A stretch of 64,000 nt of DNA. It comes from Chrysomallon squamiferum (lineage: Eukaryota; Animalia; Mollusca). Positions 412 to 56,777 of this stretch are shown here, piece after piece; position 1 is the stretch's first letter, and every line of letters starts with the position of its first letter. The translations under genes were made by a program, and so were the position numbers. The DNA is taken from contig CM022672.1 in the NCBI GenBank assembly GCA_012295275.1, positions 14,384,001 to 14,448,000 of the forward strand, written 5' to 3'. The notes under the pieces are model-generated. The model was not told the DNA's origin and made no database searches. It saw only the letters and a list, made by a program, of their open reading frames with translations.

Positions 412-462
412 CTTGAAAGACCCAATTAAAGCATCTGACCTAAATGTCTTGGCATTATGAAC
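412..462 (-). CDS. MYOF: Ferlin exon 8 (VHNAKTFRSDALIGSFK)
   Basis: ttttttcag acceptor, AAG|GTAAAA donor, 51 nt, phase 0/0; corresponds to ferlin V.NS.SLR.D.L.GEFK. Confidence 0.9.
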
Positions 463-1680: not shown

Positions 1681-1875
1681 CTGGAACTCAATGAGCTCGT
1701 CGAAGAGCTCTGCGGGAGACGAGTGGAAGTTGAAGAAAAACGACTCGTTCCAGAACGGGCTATTTGTCGACTTCTTCACCCGCGTCTGCTTTGTCTGGTT
1801 GTAGACGGTTACCTTGGCAACAGGCTGGATGTTTGCACCTTGCAGCTGGCGAGCTTCAATAACCCGTATTCTAAT
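1681..1875 (-). CDS. MYOF: Ferlin exon 7, C2B domain ([24 protein letters not shown]...[13 protein letters not shown]...IEFQ)
   Basis: atttcag acceptor, CAG|GTGCTT donor, 195 nt = 65 codons; strong resemblance to the myoferlin/dysferlin C2B domain. Confidence 0.95.
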
Positions 1876-5310: not shown

Positions 5311-5882
5311 TATAAAAATAATAATTTTGCAACTCTGTTTAAGAAACAGAATCAAGCTTTTCAACAAAAGTTTAATTATACCAGGATGGCTTTAAGAATT
5401 AAATTAAAAAAAAAAATTAATATTATTTTTTTTTTAACAATGTTTTTGGCTCAAATCATATCAAACAAAATACAAAGAAAGAAACAATATTTTCTTTAAA
5501 AAATGTATATATTGATTACCTGTCAACAATTTCTTTCAATTTAGTTATTTTGCCTCTGTTTTAATACTATATTTTACCTGCATTTTATTATTATTGTACC
5601 TGTATTTTATATCATTTTACATAAATAATTACTATTTCTTCTTCAGACAAACCCTTTAAGAACTACAATTATTTTAACTTTGTATTAATATTATTTTACC
5701 TGCATTTTAACAATATATCACCTGAATTAAGAACTACAGTTATTTTAACTTTGTATTAATATTATTTTACCTGCATTTTAACATAAGTATTAATACATAT
5801 TTTTGCCTGTATTTTAACATAATTTTACCTGCATTTTCACGCCCACAGGTACAAAACTAAGAAAGACTGTCATCAGACAAAC

Positions 5883-6188
5883 CTGAAAGTGCATGGGTTT
5901 ACTGTCTGTTAACATCGCTCGCTTGCTTTTCTTCTTCGTGGACTGAAGAAATTTTTTCTTCTTTCTTTTCTTCCCCCCTCCATTGTCATCGAAGTCTTCA
6001 ACATCGTGGACGGGTTCATCGTCGGTGTCGGACAGCAGTGGTCGAGTCTCTGGGTCCTTTGCCGGTTTAGAACTTTCCAGTTTAGATTTTTCCGGTTTAG
6101 AATTTTCCGGTTTAGAACTTCCCGGTTTCGAACTTTCCGGTTTAGAATTTTCCGGTTTAGAATTTTCTGATTTAGAATTTTTTTTCAT
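5883..6188 (-). CDS. MYOF: Ferlin alternative linker exon 6B (SKPEN repeats, ETRPLL, acidic, basic, KPMHFQ); 5' boundary uncertain (ATG at 6188 or acceptor at 6166)
   Basis: Open, GC/CpG-rich frame ending TTTCAG|GTTTGT in phase 0, like exon 6A; same acidic-basic-KPxxFQ layout. Confidence 0.72.
6061..6180. repeat. 15-bp coding tandem repeat (TCCGGTTTAGAATTT)n
   Basis: About 8 units encoding (E/G)(N/S/K)SK(P/S/L) on the minus strand. Confidence 0.9.
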
Positions 6189-6769
6189 TTTGTATAGATT
6201 TTTTTTTTTCTTTTTTATCTATGTTCTAAAAAGCTTTATTTTTTTAATTTATTTATTTAATTTTATTTTTGTTATTATTATTATTATTATTATCATTTTT
6301 TTTTTTTTCTTTTGATGAAAAATATTTTTTTTTTGCCAGTTTATCTTTTTTTGGTGACTGTTTTTTTTTTTTTCAGATTCTTTTTATTATTATTATTTCA
6401 AAACACTTGTTTTTGTTTATTTATTTATTTTAGTTTTATTATTATTAATGCTTCTTTTTATTACTTTTTTTATTTGTGATTTATTTGATTTATTTTTTAA
6501 AACTGTATTCTGATAACAAAAATTTATGTTCTGTGTTTTCAATCATTAAAATGATATTTTAGCAAAATAGCATTACATTCATAGTTTATCTTCCACAGTC
6601 AAAATGGATTAGGTTAACTTGAATAAAATCCAGTCTCTTTATACCAACATCTTCACACATTACTTCAGAATAAGAAAATAATGAAATCTGTGCTGAACAA
6701 TGTTGAATAAATTTTCTGATGTTAAAACTGAAATTAAACACTTTCAAACTATTATCAAATCTGGATCCA

Positions 6770-6866
6770 GCTAATCCAGCTGGATGTGGTATCTATGCTA
6801 ATCCAAGTGGATGTTGTACTTCTGCTAATCCAAGTGTATATAAGGTATCTCTCTGCTAATCCATAT
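6770..6866. repeat. Short diverged ~27-32-bp tandem repeat (GCTAATCCA core)
   Basis: GCTAATCCA recurs near 6770, 6797, 6824 and 6856. Confidence 0.7.
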
Positions 6867-8682
6867 AGTAAATATCTGACAAATGGGGAAATGGGCACAT
6901 CAGAAATAACTGTTCACAATATCCATTTAATATGCCCTGATATTACACCAGCTGATGTACAATAAACAAAACAGACAAGAACATTTTTTTTTTACAGTAA
7001 CAATTAATTTACAACTTAATGAACTAGCTGTCAGGACAGAAAAACTTTGTGCACTAAATACAACAAAGGCTACTGCACACAAACCGTGCTTTTTTTCCCA
7101 AAAATTATCTGAATGACTCAAAACCAATTTTCACAAATTACGGTTATCGCAATTAGCAGCAATCAGCTGTAATTGGCTCAGACACACACAGACACACATT
7201 GCACTGCGAGACTGTAACTGAAGCAGTGAGAACCGTAAAAACACAGGACACACAACAGTGGCGACATTTGCATATTGGAAAATGCAGTTTTGCAACGCTC
7301 TGTAATGACAATTAATCAGCAACAACAGCGTGCTGACAAAAGGGTGTTTTGTGTTAAAACTTTTCTTCCTGACGGACATTATTCACTGAAATTATCACAG
7401 AACGCAACGTTACAATAGCCGCATTTAAAAACCGACAATAGCTCGGCGAACCTGTTGCAAACAGTCGACATTGATCACTTCAGTGCGAGTTTTTGCAACA
7501 ACTGCTGGAACAACAAAAGTGATGATTACATTGTTACCTTACCTGGCAGTTCTTCATGTGTGGGCGAGAACTTAAAACCGAGGTCTGACATCAGAATGTT
7601 AAAAGATATTTTGTTTAAAATAATAAATAATAAAAAAATATTAAGTTGTCATCCAGGCAGAGCATTCATGACTATTGCTTTGTACGATGATGCTGTTGAA
7701 AAACAGATTGATTGAAACTGTGTGTGTGTATCTACTATCTGCAACATCTGGTGCGATGGCCACAGAGAGAGACACAGTGAACATAACAACAGTCGTAATT
7801 AAACATGATTTTCTCGATCGACACAGTCTATAATGTTATATATTCAGGACAGATGTATTATATAATATGTACATGGAGATATACACACATGATAACACAC
7901 TTAGAGATCTACTTATATAGAAACCTACATAATTACCTACCTACCTACCTAAATACAGACATATACGTACATAAATACATATAGTGAAAATGGTAACGTT
8001 GTTAGTTTTACAGCAAATTTATAACAAAAAATAGAAAAAAATAACTATGTAATAATTTTATGTAATTAAAAAAATAACTACAGTGGGTATGTATGTTGTA
8101 TACTTTAATTTTCTAAATTAAAATAGAATAATAACTAAGTTATAATTTTACATTGGGGAGAGGGGTGGACTGAAAGAAAACGTATAACTATGTTATAGTT
8201 TCAGTCCAAAGGAAAGATGTATTACACAGAAGAAAACTATGTTATATCACACTCCTGTGAAAATAAATATAAAGGTAACTTAAAAATAAATTTTTGAAAA
8301 TATATATTATTATCATTTTATTTTATTTATTTATTTATTTATTTATTTTTTATTTTAAATTGTTTAACACAACATTATAACAACGATTTTGTTTTCAAGC
8401 ATGTATTAAATTCAGTATGGAATTGCTATTCATTATTTTAATGGTCAAAATTTCCCAGATGACTGAAGTTAATTATAGGCAGTTAGCAGAAAGCTTGCAA
8501 CATGTGCATCCCATTTCAAACACTGGTGATATGCAGTCACTAATAGGTATTTGTATAAGCATATTTTAAAATACTATGCATATATAATTATTATATAAGT
8601 ATATTTTAAAGTGAAAAAAATCATAGTTTATTTTACTAATTACAATTTTATATATGAATAGATGTATGTATGTGTGTATATA

Positions 8683-8770
<88 letters not shown>

Positions 8771-9794
8771 TTTGCAATTTTAAAAAATAATATACAGGAC
8801 TATATTACAATATATTATATACCTTAAAACCAGTTGCCACAATATATATATATAAAGATATATATAACTATATTATAATAATAAAGATGATGTTGATGAT
8901 GAAAATAGTATTATAATCATCACTGTTTTTGATTTACTGTCAGCTGAAATATTTAATATATTACAAGAGACAACATTCTTTTTTCCTTCTTTGCTGTATC
9001 TCTTTCTCTCTTTTCCTCATACAGATGGACATAGATAGACTGACACATGTACAGACATACACATCCATTAAAACCCATGTACAGACATTTTTAAAATCAT
9101 CTGTTCCTGTCTTATCTTATTTCCATTTTAACCCATTTTCTATTGCATGTCCATTAAAATTTATTTTATATAATATGTCCATTGTAACCCATTTGTGTGA
9201 CATTTTTAAAATCATTTGTTCCTGTGTTATCTTATTTGTGTTTATTTTAACTTTTTTTTGCATGTCTTATGAATAAATATATTTAAAAGTATATATGTTA
9301 CTGTGTAGGCATGTTTTTGTATTTTTTTATCCATAATTTTAAAGCAAAAATGCACCAAGAAAAAAAAAAGAACAAAAAATGAAATAAAAAAAAAAAAAAT
9401 AAAAAAAAATAAAAAATGGTATAAAAGGTTTTTTTTTATCTTTCTGTGTGAATTAAAATATTAAAATAAAATAAAATAAAATAAAATAAAATAAAATAAA
9501 ATTTGTAAAATAAAAAATAAAAAATAAAATTTTAAAGGCAAAAAATGCAATTAAAATAAAAACAAATAAAAAAAAAAATAAAATAAAATAAAATAAAATA
9601 AAATAAAATAAAATAAAATAAAATAAACAAAAATAAATAACCTTTTGTATTATGTCACATATATATTATTAAAGTATGAAGGAAGAAAACAAAAGAACCC
9701 ACCAAAAAAAACATTAATTATTCTCTAACCTAAACACAACAAAATATTTCCCAAATACTCTCCTAAAAAAACCCGTTGCCATAGTAAAACTAAC

Positions 9795-9990
9795 CTGAAA
9801 GTCTTGTGGTTTGAATGAAAGATTTCCCTTCACTTTACGCTTCCCTTTTCTTCGTTGTTTGCGCTTCAGTTTGCGCTTTGATGGTTTGCCAGTGGCAGCA
9901 TCCACAACATCCACACCATCTTCTTCATCCTGTGTCTCTTCCTCTCCTCCTCTTCCTCCTCTTCCTCATCATCCTGACCAATCACTCTAC
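9795..9990 (-). CDS. MYOF: Ferlin linker exon 6A (acidic stretch, basic stretch, NLSFKPQDFQ); apparent 1-nt frameshift as assembled
   Basis: gttacag acceptor and CAG|GTTAGT donor; ends in the ferlin motif KPQDFQ. It is 196 nt where 3n+2 is needed, and the break lies in the GAG/GAA run near 9940-9950. Confidence 0.85.
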
Positions 9991-10088: not shown

Positions 10089-12882
<2,794 letters not shown>

Positions 12883-12933: not shown

Positions 12934-13006
12934 CCTCTGTGTCTCCACCTCCTCCTGCTCCTGCACCTTTTGGTGGTTTGTAAATAACTTTCAAGTTGAC
13001 ACATGC
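12934..13006 (-). CDS. MYOF: Ferlin exon 5 (ACVNLKVIYKPPKGAGAGGGGDTE), end of C2A
   Basis: atttcag acceptor, GAGG|GTAAGA donor, 73 nt, phase 0 to 1; L.I.Y.PP marks the end of C2A in ferlins. Confidence 0.88.
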
Positions 13007-13396: not shown

Positions 13397-13502
13397 CTGA
13401 AGAGGTCTGCCATTTCCATCCTGCAGATTAATGCTGAGTTCTTTTGCCTGATCTCCCCCTCGAGCAAATTCAGCTAGACTAACTTTGATGGACCCCAGCA
13501 GT
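13397..13502 (-). CDS. MYOF: Ferlin exon 4 (RLLGSIKVSLAEFARGGDQAKELSINLQDGNGRPLQ)
   Basis: tttttcag acceptor, CAG|GTATCT donor, 106 nt, phase 2 to 0. Confidence 0.9.
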
Positions 13503-17204: not shown

Positions 17205-17296
17205 CTGTTTCTGCCAATTCTCTCCCAGTCCTTTATTGAAACAAGCAGCTCATCTTTACTTGTCAGTCCAGAACCTGGCACCTCAAAGACAAATGT
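17205..17296 (-). CDS. MYOF: Ferlin exon 3 (TFVFEVPGSGLTSKDELLVSIKDWERIGRN)
   Basis: ttttgcag acceptor, AG|GTAACA donor, 92 nt, phase 0 to 2; KDWERIGRN corresponds to myoferlin KDFETIGQN. Confidence 0.92.
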
Positions 17297-37709: not shown

Positions 37710-37765
37710 CTCATTCCATTCTGGATTTAGATCTGACTTGCAAACTTTACTCTTCTTTCGTTGAC
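37710..37765 (-). CDS. MYOF: Ferlin exon 2 (GQRKKSKVCKSDLNPEWNE)
   Basis: tttttag acceptor, GAG|GTATGT donor, 56 nt, phase 1 to 0; C2 signature LNPxWNE. Confidence 0.93.
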
Positions 37766-38300: not shown

Positions 38301-38394
38301 CCTGAAATTCAATAACAGCGTAAGGGTCGCATTTCCCTAACGTCTCCGGATTAGGAACGTTTGCTGCGCTCAGAACAACGACTTGTAACGCCAT
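38301..38394 (-). CDS. MYOF: Ferlin coding exon 1 (MALQVVVLSAANVPNPETLGKCDPYAVIEFQ), start of C2A
   Basis: ATG in GCTATGG context; 94 nt; donor CAGG|GTGAGT, phase 1; resembles the myoferlin N-terminus MLRVIVESASNIP..GKPDP. Confidence 0.92.
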
Positions 38395-45469: not shown

Positions 45470-46041
45470 AGTCTGGGTCGTGTGCTGCATGAACCGTGTT
45501 TTAATTATCATAGTGGAAAACAGGAAAGACAGAGAGAACTGAAGAGGCTATTGGAATACCACACACACGTGTTCCACATTTATAACAACAGTAGAAAGTT
45601 TTTGCCATTCGCCGACTTGCCCCGGATACACCGGCCGAATGTGCCCTCAGTTTGTGTGTGTGTGTGTGTACATAGCGTCTCGGTACGCCTCACAGAACGA
45701 CACGCCTTTGTCAGGTAACGAGCAGTAACAATCTGGTAGTTTACAGCTTTCGTTTCGTTTAATACAGGGACACCTCGTCAAGAATGCACGCTGTTATTAC
45801 TGCTGTCCTTGGACGTGTGCTGTCAGCTGGATATTACACAACCGGCTGGGTGATAAAGCCTGATAATTCACATTCGGTGGGATAATATATGCATTGGAAA
45901 TAATATTTGAAAGTGCTTCTGAAAAAGAAAAATAAAAAAAATAATAAAAAAAAAATAATAATAATAATAAAAGATTTAAAAAGAAAGAGAAAGAGAAGAA
46001 GAAAATTCAAAAAAGGAATAATGATTAAGGAAATGAGGATT
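45470..46041 (+). promoter_or_regulatory. MAM gene promoter / 5'UTR region
   Basis: CpG-rich unique sequence (45470-45890) followed by an A-rich leader before the ATG. Confidence 0.45.
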
Positions 46042-46918
46042 ATGGCTCGTAAGTGTATTTCGTGTTTGATTTTATTTATTTTGCTTGTTCAGTGTTTGTC
46101 GCTGGAAACTACGTGTTCGTTCGACGGCGACGAATGCACCTACAACATTAAAATTCAGCAGAGGAAAGGAAAGTGCGTCGTTCACGATTTGTCGGACCAC
46201 GTTGCAGACGTCACTGCTTCGGTCAACGGCGACCGAGTCGTCAGCGACACCGAATACGACATCAGCGCCAAAATGCAGTCGATCCAGGAGACGATAGGCT
46301 CAGTGAAATCCGAGCACGAGAAGCGATTAAAAGATCTGGAGGCAGCAGTGAGACAGCTTTTAGGTCTGAAGGAGAAACCCGCGCTGCCTTTCAGTCTGAA
46401 ACCGAAGAAAGGTTACACGATTTTCGAAGACGGTCTGCTCAGCCGACTGGAGAGCGAGTTCTACAGACTGAGAGAGATGGTGAAAATGAAGGACAGGATT
46501 ATTCTGGACACTGAGATGAAACTGAACGAGTCCCAGAAACTCGCCCAGGACAAGCAGGTGGAAGCCTTCGCCCTGAACCGCCGTCTGCTGCACGCCGAGC
46601 ACAAAGTGGCTCTTCTGGAACGGGAGAGAAGGGTCCTGAAGAACCAGCTGAAAGACAAGACGTACCTGCTGCGAGGAGCGACTGCGAACGCGACAGAGTC
46701 CACCTCGAAGATAACGAGGATAGAGGAGCAGCTCCTCACTCTGGTCAGATCGGAAAACAACCTGAAGGAAGTTCTGATGACGTGTGAGCTTCTGAAAAAC
46801 CAAACCGAGGCTGAGTTGAAGGTTTACAAACACAAAGCGAACCACATCCTTGCAAAACAGAAAATCCTCAAAGGGAATCTAAGAATACGAGAACGAGAAC
46901 TCATAGACTGCTATTCAG
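46042..46918 (+). CDS. MAM-protein exon 1: signal peptide, Cys motif and long coiled coil
   Basis: Long GC-rich ORF. MARKCISCLILFILLVQCLS is signal-peptide-like, with ATTATGG context; in-frame ATGs at 46021 and 46033 are alternative starts. L/E/K/R-rich helical region; donor TCAG|GTAGGT, phase 1. Confidence 0.9.
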
Positions 46919-48152
46919 GTAGGTTTCCTATAAGTAATCTTAGTTCATTCAAACAGCAAACTAGGCTTTACAACACCATTTAAAATGCATAGAATCTTTT
47001 AACACTGCTGTTTAAAATAGACAGAGTAACCTTCAGAAATGCTGTTTATATTTTATAGAGCCAAAATTTAAAAATATTAATTAAAATGTAAACAGATAAT
47101 TTAGTGTGCTATTTAAAATATTTCATACCCATGTTCTTGATATTTTGCTGTGTGCTTTATGTTAATATCATATTTATAAAAAGTTAAGACGATGATGGTT
47201 TAGATGATGGTTATAAAGGAACGCCAGTAAGAAAACGTAAGATCACGTGAGGTACAGTTTCACTTTCAAAACGGAACCATTCAGTTTTATCAGTCTTTGT
47301 TTCAGAATACATCTACCACTGAAATATTCAATACTTTCCTCACTCCTTTAAATGCAGGGCAGTGCGTACCGCTTCGTTAATCTATAAAAGATATGTTAAT
47401 ACAGAGTATACTCACTGGAAATGTATGGTATTAGTCTTTTAACATATTGCATACAAAAAATGATAACAACTGTATAAAATATTAAAGGTTTTGATGGTCA
47501 TTATAAATGAGGAGAATTTCTACGTTTTAATAAAGTGATTAACATTTATATTACTGCGAATAACTGCGTATTTTTTTTTTAACGAGACATTTGTTTGTTA
47601 GCAGTTGTTTATTTGTGTATGTTGTTTTTCTACATCTTATCTCTCTGTTAGATCCGGGGAATCATAATTATATATCATTAAATATACAAAAGTATACAAC
47701 TGAGCCAAGTCGGGCGTTAACAATTGTTAAAAAAAAAAAAAAAAAAAAAAAAGACAAAGAGTCTTAACAATAAATACTCTACTTGAGTGACCTTTACGAA
47801 TAGCTAAAGCATGTATATGCGGGTTTTTTTATGTGTTTGTTTGTGTTTTTTAAAGATAATTGTTTCGTTTATGAAAACAAGCCTTGGAATTGGTCAGTGT
47901 AAAGTTCCTGCAGGAAGACCAGTGATTAATGACAGCAAGCAGTTTGCTTGTCGTTCTGCATTTCTCACCATCCGATTTCTGGTGGAACATGCATCATTGG
48001 TGTCAAAAAATGCAGTTTAAGTGAAATTAATGCATTTTATCGTCTATGGTTATTTATTGTTTTCTGTCTAGATGGTTTCGTTCAAGAAATTTTCCATAAT
48101 TCAATATGACTTGAGTGAAATTACTCTGGGTTTTTTTTTTTTTTTTTTCCCC

Positions 48153-54293: not shown

Positions 54294-54524
54294 AAAATTA
54301 TGATTATTATTGTTGTTGTTGCCATTGTTATTACTATTACAAATATTTATTATTATTATTGTTATTATTATTGTTATTATTATTACTTGTGATCATACTG
54401 TTGTGTTGTTATTATTGTTATTATTATTATTATTTATGATGTTTCTGTTGTGTGTTTGTTGTTGTTGTTATTATTATTATTGTTTATGCTGTTGTGTTGT
54501 TGTTGTTATTGTATTATTTTACAG

Positions 54525-54676
54525 GTCACTTCATGTACATCGAGGCGTCAGCAAAAGGACGCGGTAACAACGCCATCATGTACTCCCCCCTCTACCGCGG
54601 CATGGAGGAACAATGCATCGCCTTTTTCTACAACATGAACGGCCGCAATGTCGGCACCCTCAACGTCTATGCAAAG
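54525..54676 (+). CDS. MAM-protein exon 3 (GHFMYIEAS...SP...CIAFFYNMNGRNVGTLNVYAK)
   Basis: ttttacag acceptor, AAG|GTCGGT donor; MAM motifs G.YMYIEAS and C..F.Y.M.G..VG.LNVY. Confidence 0.94.
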
Positions 54677-54856
54677 GTCGGTGACATTAGCAACGTAATC
54701 ACTGTGTGTACGTGCGCATTATATATATATATGCATGTATATATGTATATATGTAAATATATATGTATATACGTGTATGTGTGTGTGTATGTATAATTAT
54801 ATGTATGTGTGTCTGCATCTGTGATTACATACAAACATGTATACAGGGAGGCAGAT

Positions 54857-54971
<115 letters not shown>

Positions 54972-56017
54972 AAATGCAGAAATACACTGCGGACTACATG
55001 TGTGGAAATCACCCTCCACGCTATTTTCTTGACTCCTTCTCTCTTCGCGGTTTTCTTACACAATTTGATAATCACAACTGTAACTATTTATAAGCTTTCT
55101 TTTTTTCCACCTCTAACGTAATGAATCCGTCACGTAATACCCTGACCACAGCCAGACTACAGATAGTAAAAATATAACCTTACAGCGATAAGTTACGCGT
55201 ATTAAAAACCTTTCCTTAATCCTTTCTCACAAACTGTGTTAAACGAGACGACCGGCACGCAACGTTTAGGATAAATTCGCTATAAAAAAGCTGATAGAAA
55301 TGATCTCTGATGAGATATCGCTTCTTAAATGTGTACAGACAGAGACTGGTGGTTTTGTCAGCGACTGAGGGAAGTTAATCTCGTAAACCAGGCAACCTAA
55401 ACGCACCTACTCTGAATGGGAATTTCATATAGCAGGACTGCTGATTTCTCGAAAATAAAGATAATGATATTATTTCCTTTTGACCTCGATATTAAACAAA
55501 CTAATTTGCCGTTTCAGGATTTTTTTTTTTTTTTTTTTTTAAATTCAGATCTGTTATTAGTTTTGGCAAAGTGCCTAATTATACAGTTTCCAGGTACAGA
55601 ATAAAAAAAGTTTATCTCAGTAAATATACAATATTTATATATATATATATAACATTGTCTTGCTATGATAATAAATACATTTTTAAATATTTATTCGAAA
55701 AAACTCTGAGCAAGGTGGTATGCGTGTGAAAAATTAAATTGGCCGCTGATGCTGAACGCCTCGTAATGAAATTCCTCAGTCTTTAAACAGTTTTCATTAA
55801 GTCAGATAACTGAGTATTTTCTGATTTTATCAGAGTGTTGGAAAATAACGAAATTTTACAAAATCGACACTGGAGTGGGTTTCTAATACTTCAGATAATT
55901 TAACATTATATAATCAGAGTGTAAACACACAAGGTACGGAACTTAAATAAATAACAAGCGCAGCCAACCAACCTGAAAATAACGTCTTTGAATTGTAAAT
56001 GTGGTAATTCCTTGCAG

Positions 56018-56128
56018 GCCCGAGGTGCGGAGCTGTTTTCAGTGTGGAGGGCATATGGTAACCAAGGAGACGTGTGGTCGGAAGCTCGACTTGGAATACC
56101 GAAGGAACTGGCTAGAGCGGGATATCAG
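56018..56128 (+). CDS. MAM-protein exon 4 (ARGAELFSVWRAYGNQGDVWSEARLGIPKELARAGYQ)
   Basis: ccttgcag acceptor, CAG|GTAAAT donor, 111 nt, phase 0/0; MAM motif W...GNQG..W. Confidence 0.93.
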
Positions 56129-56141
56129 GTAAATAATAAAA

Positions 56142-56183
<42 letters not shown>

Positions 56184-56477
56184 TAATTAAAAACCCAGTC
56201 ATAATGATGATGACAATGATAGCAGAGGTGGTAGTAGTTTCAATAGCAGTAGTTGTGGTAGTATCGGTAGTAGTAGTAGTAGTAGCAGTAATACTAATTG
56301 TAGTAATAATGGTGGTGATGATAACAGCAGTAGTGGTACTGATAGTAATAAGAGTGATAGCATCAGAAGCACTAAAAATCGCGGTGATAGCAAAAAACAC
56401 GAGTAACAATAACGGTACACGAGGTGGTAATATTTTTCGCAAAAAAATCGAATCAAATGTTAATGTTTCGATTTCAG

Positions 56478-56777
56478 ATCGCATTCGAAGGGATTACGGA
56501 AAGTGGTTACCAAGGAGATATCTCTATCGATGACATATCGGTCACGAGCGGGCACTGCAAAGTGGACAGCGTCATCAAGTCTGTGCGGGTGGCGCTCAAC
56601 ACGACTATTCTCGAAAAGGCCAGCAAGTCTTTCGCGCGGAAAATCAAACGAGGCAGTCGCCGTTCTCGTAAACGTCAAAAAGCTAAGACGCCAGCGCTGG
56701 CGAAGACAACAGCACGGATGACGACGACAAGCACACCAACGCCGAAGACTCCACAACAGAGACGTGCAAACAACTAG
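56478..56777 (+). CDS. MAM-protein exon 5 (IAFEG...GDISIDDISVTSGHC, then a basic, Thr-rich tail and stop)
   Basis: atttcag acceptor; MAM C-terminal signature FEG....GDIxIDDI....G.C; TAG at 56775-56777. Confidence 0.93.
   Translation: MAFEGITESGYQGDISIDDISVTSGHCKVDSVIKSVRVALNTTILEKASKSFARKIKRGSRRSRKRQKAKTPALAKTTARMTTTSTPTPKTPQQRRANN

What the first reader, a model, noticed from the sequence alone, without database searches (positions are those of the whole stretch)
5883..9990. Duplicated ferlin linker exons 6A/6B: a probable isoform switch in front of C2B
Seen: two separate exons ~3.6 kb apart end at the same protein position (KPQDFQ| and KPMHFQ|, both TTTCAG|GT, phase 0) and share an acidic-then-basic layout. 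Exon 6B has a weak phase-1 acceptor (ttctaaatcag|, start 6166, 284 nt = 3n+2) that fits the exon-5 donor; splicing 6A onto that acceptor would break the frame. Known: in myoferlin/dysferlin a single KPQDFQ precedes IRVRVIE of C2B. Inference: exon duplication produced either a mutually exclusive pair or an alternative first exon. In the second case the ATG at 6188 (ACAAAATGA context) would give a ferlin lacking the Ca2+-sensing C2A domain. I do not know of this being described in invertebrate ferlins.
Basis: partly seen in the sequence, partly recalled or inferred. Interest (0 to 1): 0.82.

Follow-up and report, generated by a model that had tools for sequence, protein, structure and literature searches.

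The report
Internal start exon in snail ferlin
Inside an intron of a snail gene for a membrane-fusion protein (a ferlin) sits an extra protein-coding exon that likely acts as a second start and would give a shorter protein without its first, predicted calcium-binding domain; database gene models of several other snails show such a short form, and a similar one is known for the mouse hearing protein otoferlin.

Summary
Both exons exist; KP..FQ|GT occurs twice, never in shuffles. 6B (ATG 6188-5883, 102 aa) is most likely an alternative first coding exon of a type-1 ferlin. It matches the start of Gigantopelta RefSeq isoform X6 (53%, E 4e-16), which lacks C2A. Seven of nine gastropod clusters list such an isoform; 0 of 56 C2A-bearing isoforms contain it. 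The proposed acceptor at 6166 is unit 1 of a 15-nt coding repeat, so mutual exclusion is not supported. Origin by duplication is open (about 50%): only the last ~14 residues resemble 6A. No spliced RNA was seen in three shallow RNA runs. The swap would remove C2A and also replace the segment matching myoferlin's linker helix. Closest known case: mouse otoferlin short isoform (exon 6b). Ten paper searches found no gastropod description, but automatic gene models already carry it, and this scan noted the same kind of exon before in an Octopus genome (e1-9563733). Real and conserved, but modest novelty.

The parts
38301..38394 (-). Ferlin coding exon 1 (ATG 38394; start of C2A), phase 1 end; CpG-rich
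   Evidence: 82% to Gigantopelta P0048 residues 1-33
37710..37765 (-). Exon 2 (C2A)
17205..17296 (-). Exon 3 (C2A, holds KDWE)
13397..13502 (-). Exon 4 (C2A)
12934..13006 (-). Exon 5 (end of C2A, start of linker), phase 1 donor
9795..9990 (-). Exon 6A, canonical C2A-C2B linker ending KPQDFQ; 196 nt as assembled
9944..9965 (-). Purine run in 6A that holds a one-base frameshift, probably an assembly error
   Evidence: (two-frame tblastn hit); not checked against reads
7001..8000 (.). CpG-richer patch, candidate internal promoter region (weak)
   Evidence: 17 and 9 CpG per 500 bp; CpG/GpC 26/39, p 0.06 against internal exons
7543..7557 (-). Candidate micro first exon or leader exon (MKNCQ, donor CAG|GTAAGG), unproven
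   Evidence: best donor-like GT of 422 scored in the 6A-exon 7 intron; resembles Gigantopelta isoform X7 start MSKNFQ (P0185)
5883..6188 (-). Exon 6B coding part: 102-aa lysine-rich N-terminus ending KPMHFQ, phase 0 donor; likely alternative first coding exon
6058..6181 (-).
1681..1875 (-). Exon 7, C2B core; shared by both forms
   Evidence: PF00168, E 3e-11
412..462 (-). Exon 8 (C2B continued); the gene runs off the window

Best explanation
Exon 6B is an intact 102-codon reading frame inside intron 6 of a dysferlin/myoferlin-type ferlin gene and likely serves as the first coding exon of a second transcript from an inferred internal promoter; spliced to exon 7, it would give a ferlin in which the predicted calcium- and lipid-binding C2A domain and its linker are replaced by a lysine-rich tail. 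Shown: the exon, its donor, its open frame in a second DNA data set, and its homology to the start of C2A-less RefSeq isoforms. Inferred: the promoter and the 5883>1875 splice in this species. Inferred function (about 35%): the short form keeps C2B-C2G and the membrane anchor, so it still folds and binds calcium. It loses C2A-dependent membrane and partner binding, and gains a basic tail and a different version of the segment that in human myoferlin forms the linker helix between C2B and C2C. The likely result is different trafficking or membrane tethering in some tissue. The exon probably predates the split of the main gastropod lineages.
For: Gigantopelta isoform X6 (XP_041370604.1, P0187) starts MKK and matches 6B: 53%, E 4e-16; global score 156 against a maximum of 68 in 2000 shuffles. 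It is identical to full-length isoform X1 over all 1838 residues from C2B on. Same design in 7 of 9 gastropod clusters, with downstream sequence identical in 5 species and 99.8-100% over aligned residues in 2. 11 of 11 6B-type records start with Met and lack C2A motifs; 0 of 56 C2A-bearing isoforms contain a 6B end. 6B ends score against 6B ends of other clades at p<=0.005 in 8 of 10 rows. Run X3 covers 5799-6190 without gaps; 4 of 5 listed exonic differences are synonymous (p 0.047 on a transitions-only null). CpG/GpC is 10/5 in the non-repeat part of 6B and 8/6 in exon 1, against 6/25 in six internal exons (p 0.003 and 0.017). The myoferlin linker helix 173-190 (PMC12264198) maps to positions -28..-11 from the exon end (alignment).
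Against: No spliced read or contig: 0 joints in 4 of 4 runs laid on 5750-8250, and an X2 contig crosses the 5883 donor unspliced at depth 3. These RNA runs also cover intron, so they may be DNA. RefSeq isoforms are automatic models; I did not see their read support or genomic layout. Window 6B is directly homologous to only 3 of 11 6B-type records (Gigantopelta, two Haliotis); the other 8 give p 0.13-0.65. The window and Gigantopelta rows are the two weakest in the cross-clade test (p 0.034, 0.061). Two of the 10 X3 differences were not listed. Internal exon 7 is also CpG-rich (13/13, p 0.023), which weakens the promoter argument. Patella (5 listed) and Babylonia/Nucella (6 listed) show no short isoform.
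Confidence: 0.85

Rival explanations
1. 6A and 6B are a mutually exclusive internal pair: exon 5 splices to 6166 and the protein keeps C2A with another linker.
For: The 284-nt piece from 6166 is 3n+2 and open, so it fits the phase-1 donor of exon 5.
Against: The AG is part of a coding repeat unit and has no pyrimidine tract. Four other AGs inside 6B are in frame too. 0 of 56 C2A-bearing isoforms hold a 6B end. The Gigantopelta orthologue starts MKK like the ORF at 6188. X1 and X3 contigs cross 6166 without a joint (X1 may be DNA).
Confidence: 0.04
2. The short transcript starts further up, in the CpG-richer patch at 7001-8000. An exon ending at 7543 is a leader spliced onto 6B, or a third start (MKNCQ) spliced straight to exon 7. 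The product still lacks C2A, but 6B need not be the first transcribed exon.
For: 7543 is the best-scoring of 422 GT sites in the intron and beats all 9 real donors of the gene (generic matrix recalled, approximate). Gigantopelta X7 and Octopus sinensis X13 have six-residue starts MSKNFQ and MAKVFQ.
Against: An X1 contig (7441-7615) crosses the site unspliced. The CpG excess is only p 0.06. The six-residue starts may come from the exon-7 acceptor itself, since TTTCAG reads FQ. A candidate acceptor at 6225 is pyrimidine-poor.
Confidence: 0.3
3. Origin: 6B arose by tandem duplication of the linker exon 6A and then acquired a start codon and promoter, rather than by independent exonisation shaped by the need to supply the first strand of C2B.
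For: Gapped end-anchored score against 19 canonical ends gives p<0.05 in 5 of 10 6B rows (range 0.012-0.126); the unrelated Octopus start gives 0.73. Same acidic-basic layout and same phase-0 boundary. Gigantopelta 6B hits window 6A weakly (E 0.039). Codon shuffles reach the DNA score in 17 of 1000.
Against: Layout-keeping shuffles reach the DNA score in 184 of 1000; hhalign of the two profiles gives 21% over 8 columns. BLASTP E 3.3. Ungapped, 9 of 10 6B ends do not match the 6A profile. Any start exon must end in a strand-compatible xFQ, and CAG is the donor consensus.
Confidence: 0.5
4. 6B is a dead remnant in this species, no longer used.
For: No spliced evidence; a lineage-specific repeat has expanded inside it.
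Against: 306-nt open frame with in-frame repeat units, intact donor, 53% identity to Gigantopelta, and mostly synonymous differences in X3.
Confidence: 0.05
5. The frameshift in 6A is real, so the C2A-bearing form is broken here and 6B is the main start.
For: The window sequence as given is out of frame.
Against: Exons 1-5 are open, with GT-AG sites and 60-82% identity to Gigantopelta. The shift lies in a simple purine run, where assemblies commonly slip (own knowledge).
Confidence: 0.05

Closest known systems
RefSeq/GenBank C2A-less isoform models of gastropod myoferlin-like genes: Gigantopelta aegis X6 XP_041370604.1; Haliotis rufescens X12 XP_048249411.1; H. cracherodii X8 XP_071089438.1; Littorina saxatilis XP_070210968.1; Pomacea canaliculata X9 XP_025096659.1; Physella acuta X10 XP_059157046.1; Biomphalaria glabrata X10 XP_055863137.1; Elysia crispata KAK3744088.1
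   Same: A 64-96 residue Met-started segment joined to C2B at the same point, same gene as the long form. Gigantopelta and Haliotis versions are directly homologous to 6B.
   Different: Automatic models with no functional study found. The window's copy has an SKPEN repeat where Gigantopelta has a glycine-rich stretch.
Mouse otoferlin short isoform from unannotated exon 6b (Liu et al. 2023, PMC10227054; abstract and passages seen, supplements not)
   Same: A short transcript from an internal exon gives a ferlin without C2A. It is tissue-specific, conserved in mammals, functional, and binds endophilin A1 and clathrin light chain less well.
   Different: Type-2 ferlin whose C2A does not bind calcium. 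Described as a truncation of the first 192 residues; here a new coding N-terminus replaces the linker up to the first strand of C2B. No homology between the two exons was tested.
Dysferlin alternative exon 1 (C2A variant; PMC2923515 passage, Fuson 2014 seen only as a reference title)
   Same: Alternative first exon in a type-1 ferlin that changes the N-terminal domain.
   Different: Swaps part of C2A; does not delete it.
Drosophila misfire (PMC1853072, passages)
   Same: Invertebrate ferlin with tissue-specific promoters and isoforms with different numbers of C2 domains.
   Different: Non-DysF ferlin whose longest form already starts at C2B; no C2A on/off switch.
Octopus myoferlin isoforms X12/X8 (XP_036355195.1, XP_052821682.1) and X13
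   Same: C2A-less start joined at the same point of the same gene.
   Different: The 81-residue start shows no similarity to 6A or 6B ends (p 0.37-0.73); possibly an independent origin.

Membership tests
Type-1 (DysF) ferlin, dysferlin/myoferlin-like | N-terminal C2A then C2B, orthologous to named myoferlin-like proteins | tested here: met
   Exon 7 matches mollusc myoferlin-like proteins at up to 88%; exons 1-8 match Gigantopelta P0048 at 60-100%
Type-1 (DysF) ferlin, dysferlin/myoferlin-like | FerI, FerA, FerB, DysF, further C2 domains and C-terminal membrane anchor | tested here: inconclusive
   These lie outside the window and no genome is held. FerI, FerA, FerB and Ferlin_C are present in the Gigantopelta orthologues; DysF shows only as a weak Pex24p hit
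Alternative first coding exon | Own in-frame ATG after an upstream stop, and no real acceptor | tested here: met
   ATG 6188, in-frame stop upstream, A at -3; candidate acceptors are pyrimidine-poor
Alternative first coding exon | Orthologous exon starts a transcript model and never follows upstream exons | tested here: met
   11 of 11 start with Met; 0 of 56 C2A-bearing isoforms contain it; models only
Alternative first coding exon | Own transcription start and splice to exon 7 in this species | tested here: inconclusive
   0 joints in 4 runs, contigs only, low depth; CpG pattern suggestive
Mutually exclusive exon pair | Both exons have functional acceptors in the phase of the upstream donor | tested here: not met
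   6166 is a repeat unit without a pyrimidine tract
Mutually exclusive exon pair | Both exons occur downstream of the same upstream exon | tested here: not met
   0 of 56 in relatives
Tandem exon duplication | Homology between the two exons beyond composition and splice-site constraint | tested here: inconclusive
   5 of 10 rows p<0.05 at the 3' end; no signal over the rest
Otoferlin-type short isoform (works-like comparison) | Tissue-restricted expression and altered vesicle recycling or partner binding | not testable with these tools
   Needs tissue RNA and cell assays
Acidic dileucine sorting signal [DE]xxxL[LIVM] (motif recalled) | Motif present and conserved in the cytosolic tail | tested here: inconclusive
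   4 of 12 6B-type segments (window ETRPLL and Gigantopelta ETQPLV at the same place), chance 0.01-0.10 each; 0 of 19 canonical linkers

The most novel reading that the evidence does not exclude
Gastropod type-1 ferlin has an ancient promoter switch that swaps the whole calcium-sensing front end, C2A plus the ring-closing linker helix, for a calcium-independent basic tail with its own sorting signal. Octopus and mammalian otoferlin reached the same C2A on/off switch at the same place independently, so C2A removal would be a recurrent built-in regulatory mode of ferlins, and snails supply a natural C2A-less myoferlin/dysferlin to test what C2A does.
Probability: 0.3. Interest if true: 0.65.

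Novelty: new variant of a known kind. Interest (0 to 1): 0.4.

Why it matters
What C2A adds to dysferlin and myoferlin is unsettled. It is unresolved in the cryo-EM maps (PMC11544258, PMC12264198), and engineered dysferlin without it localises normally but fails to recover the calcium transient after osmotic injury (PMC12609527, passages). A natural C2A-less type-1 ferlin kept across gastropod lineages is a ready test case in laboratory snails such as Biomphalaria. It also warns that 'C2A absent' calls for invertebrate ferlins (blank C2A cells for Lottia, Schistosoma and Capitella in Table 2 of PMC2923515) may partly reflect gene models (inference). The surprise is moderate: alternative first exons are common, the isoform is already in automatic annotations, and otoferlin gives a published precedent.

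Tried and rejected
No whole genome is held, so exons beyond the window were not examined. A protein search with 6B alone among longer proteins (180-2000 aa) scored none of 122 candidates; the orthologue came from cluster listings instead. The look-up of sequencing runs listed 4 runs, none with half the words. Reads were laid only on 5750-8250, so 6A, its frameshift and the 9795 and 9990 junctions remain unchecked against reads; missing joints in shallow contigs are no evidence of absence. AlphaFold models from 11-row alignments were too poor to use: short Gigantopelta N-terminus mean pLDDT 39.6, canonical type 53.3 with the linker under 50 over most of its length. In-frame AGs inside the 6A purine run (9964-9919) were rejected as acceptors, because Gigantopelta aligns from 9991. 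Ungapped same-gene identities (260-275 of 300 for three species) came from other alternative exons and were replaced. The header says 5000 shuffles; 2000 were run. PMC7140416 (passages) added nothing. Look-ups of earlier findings by place and by sequence were empty.
Full report
Gene. The minus strand carries the 5' part of a dysferlin/myoferlin-like ferlin. Coding exons: 38394-38301, 37765-37710, 17296-17205, 13502-13397, 13006-12934, 6A 9990-9795, 1875-1681 and 462-412. Exon 7 gave 31 hits among 37 candidates, led by mollusc myoferlin-like proteins. The exons match Gigantopelta aegis isoform X3 at 60-100%, so the source is most likely a gastropod close to it (inference). No genome is held.

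Observation. Both segments end in KP..FQ followed by GT in phase 0. The pattern occurs 2 times in 64 kb and 0 times in 100 shuffles. Two corrections. First, 6A is 196 nt; exons 1-6A sum to 617 nt, one short of frame. Gigantopelta aligns to it in two frames (87% over 9991-9947, 63% over 9944-9792). So the acceptor at 9990 is right and one base is missing in the purine run. An assembly slip is the likely cause (inference; not checked against reads). Second, the proposed acceptor at 6166 sits between the first two units of a 15-nt repeat that encodes (E/G)(N/S)SKP. It has 6 pyrimidines in -20..-3 against 10-17 at the 7 real acceptors.

What 6B is. From ATG 6188 the frame is open for 102 codons to the donor. 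A search with part of a chiton ferlin listed the best 120 of 1295 hits. I looked up 30 clusters, at most 15 members listed each, and tallied 25; the 5 left out were single-member clusters. Gigantopelta isoform X6 (XP_041370604.1) starts with an 83-residue segment that matches 6B (53%, E 4e-16; score 156 against at most 68 in 2000 shuffles). It runs straight into C2B, and is identical to isoform X1 from there on. Seven of 9 gastropod clusters list such an isoform: Gigantopelta, Haliotis, Littorina, Pomacea, Physella, Biomphalaria and Elysia; Patella and Babylonia/Nucella do not. None of 6 bivalve clusters does, though only 15 of 123 Magallana and 15 of 37 C. virginica members were listed. Lineus, amphioxus, Ptychodera, Nematostella and Macrostomum show none. 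Short sea-urchin, chiton and S. japonicum records end in the canonical linker. Octopus has a C2A-less start of unrelated sequence. All 11 6B-type records start with Met, and 0 of 56 C2A-bearing isoforms in the seven clusters contain a 6B end. That favours a first exon over a mutually exclusive one.

Is it one family? Window 6B is directly homologous to 3 of 11 records (Gigantopelta, two Haliotis); the other 8 give p 0.13-0.65. With two near-duplicates dropped, residues -14..-3 score against 6B ends of other clades at p<=0.005 in 8 of 10 rows; the window (0.034) and Gigantopelta (0.061) are weakest (2000 shuffles). The 6B ends have their hydrophobic residue at -10, the canonical ends at -9. A single origin early in gastropods is likely but rests on a 12-residue signal.

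Is it alive here? Four runs were listed and laid on 5750-8250. No joints were seen. The three RNA runs are shallow contigs that also cover intron; X2 crosses the 5883 donor unspliced and X1 crosses 6166 unspliced. They show neither use nor disuse. X3 covers 5799-6190 at depth 36 with 10 differences and no gap. Eight are listed, 5 in the exon; 4 of these 5 are synonymous (p 0.047 transitions-only, 0.007 by site count). CpG/GpC is 10/5 in the non-repeat part of 6B and 8/6 in exon 1, against 6/25 in six internal exons, as expected near an unmethylated promoter (own knowledge of mollusc gene-body methylation). Exon 7 is CpG-rich too (13/13), which weakens this. The best donor-like site of 422 in the intron is at 7543, behind ATG-MKNCQ, in a CpG-richer patch (matrix recalled). 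It resembles the six-residue starts of Gigantopelta X7 and O. sinensis X13 and may be a leader or third start (unproven).

Duplication. For: 5 of 10 6B ends beat shuffles against 19 canonical ends when one gap is allowed, and the Octopus start does not. Against: hhalign 21% over 8 columns; the 6A/6B DNA score is reached by 184 of 1000 layout-keeping shuffles (17 of 1000 plain codon shuffles); BLASTP E 3.3. The boundary cuts the first strand of C2B, so any start exon is constrained there. About even odds.

How it likely works. Shown: exon anatomy and orthology. Inferred: an internal promoter makes 6B-exon 7 transcripts. The product keeps C2B-C2G and the anchor. In cryo-EM structures C2A is flexible and outside the core (PMC11544258, PMC12264198; passages), and dysferlin without C2A still reaches triad junctions but fails to recover after osmotic injury (PMC12609527; passages). 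So a stable protein with changed regulation is expected. The snail C2A keeps acidic residues (KCDPY, KDWE) that align with dysferlin D21, D71 and E73; that these bind calcium is recalled, so calcium sensing by this C2A is predicted only. The myoferlin linker helix (173-190), stacked between C2B and C2C in the lipid-bound state, maps to positions -28..-11 from the exon end (tag offset 51 inferred), so the swap also changes that segment. Ten of 12 6B-type segments have 4 or more K/R in the first 12 residues, and 4 of 12 have an acidic dileucine motif against 0 of 19 canonical linkers (window and Gigantopelta are not independent). A calcium-independent tether or sorting tail is the best guess (about 35%). 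Both structure predictions were too poor to test it.

Known or new. Mouse otoferlin has a functional short isoform from an unannotated exon 6b that lacks C2A (PMC10227054; abstract and passages; its supplementary figures on exon 6b were not seen and may bear on whether that exon is coding). Dysferlin has an alternative exon 1 within C2A (PMC2923515; passages). Drosophila misfire uses tissue-specific promoters (PMC1853072; passages). Ten searches of the open-access library turned up no paper on a C2A-less gastropod or other type-1 ferlin isoform; hits beyond the seven papers opened were seen only as listings, and subscription papers are not covered.

Verdict. A real, conserved, probably functional alternative start exon; not a mutually exclusive pair; duplication unproven. 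New variant of a known kind, interest 0.4.

Noticed in passing
window 7543-7557 (minus) and 7001-8000: Strongest donor-like site of the intron, preceded by ATG-MKNCQ in phase 0, in a CpG-richer patch with a CCAAT-like box near 7177; candidate third start or leader exon, like Gigantopelta X7 MSKNFQ.
   Followed up: partly
window 9944-9965 (minus): One-base frameshift in exon 6A as assembled; would break automatic annotation of the long form.
   Followed up: partly
window 10094-12880: About 2.8 kb of degenerate AG repeat fills most of intron 5, ending about 100 nt before the 6A acceptor.
   Followed up: no
window 45904-46980 (plus): Long ORF with a signal-peptide-like stretch and a coiled-coil-like tail; no Pfam hit. 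Plus-strand pieces near 54440-56774 read like MAM-domain exons (motifs recalled; the 84-aa piece tested had no Pfam hit).
   Followed up: partly
proteins P0275, P0288, P0293, P0116, P0299, P0107: Heterobranch 6B-type ends share W[DE]RF[ED] just before the K..DFQ end, a sharper motif than in other snails; function unknown.
   Followed up: no
proteins P0101-P0114, P0119, P0098, P0099, P0081: Coral, two fluke and a second Babylonia ferlin record lack C2A but end in canonical-type tails; may be gene-level loss or further alternative starts.
   Followed up: partly
proteins P0322/P0323, P0364/P0096, P0126/P0141: Amphioxus, Nematostella and Xenopus records show two different C2A starts per gene, like the dysferlin alternative exon 1.
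   Followed up: no
PMC2923515 Table 2: C2A cells are blank for Lottia, Schistosoma mansoni and Capitella type-1 ferlins, whereas Patella and S. haematobium records here have C2A; gene-model effects are possible.
   Followed up: no
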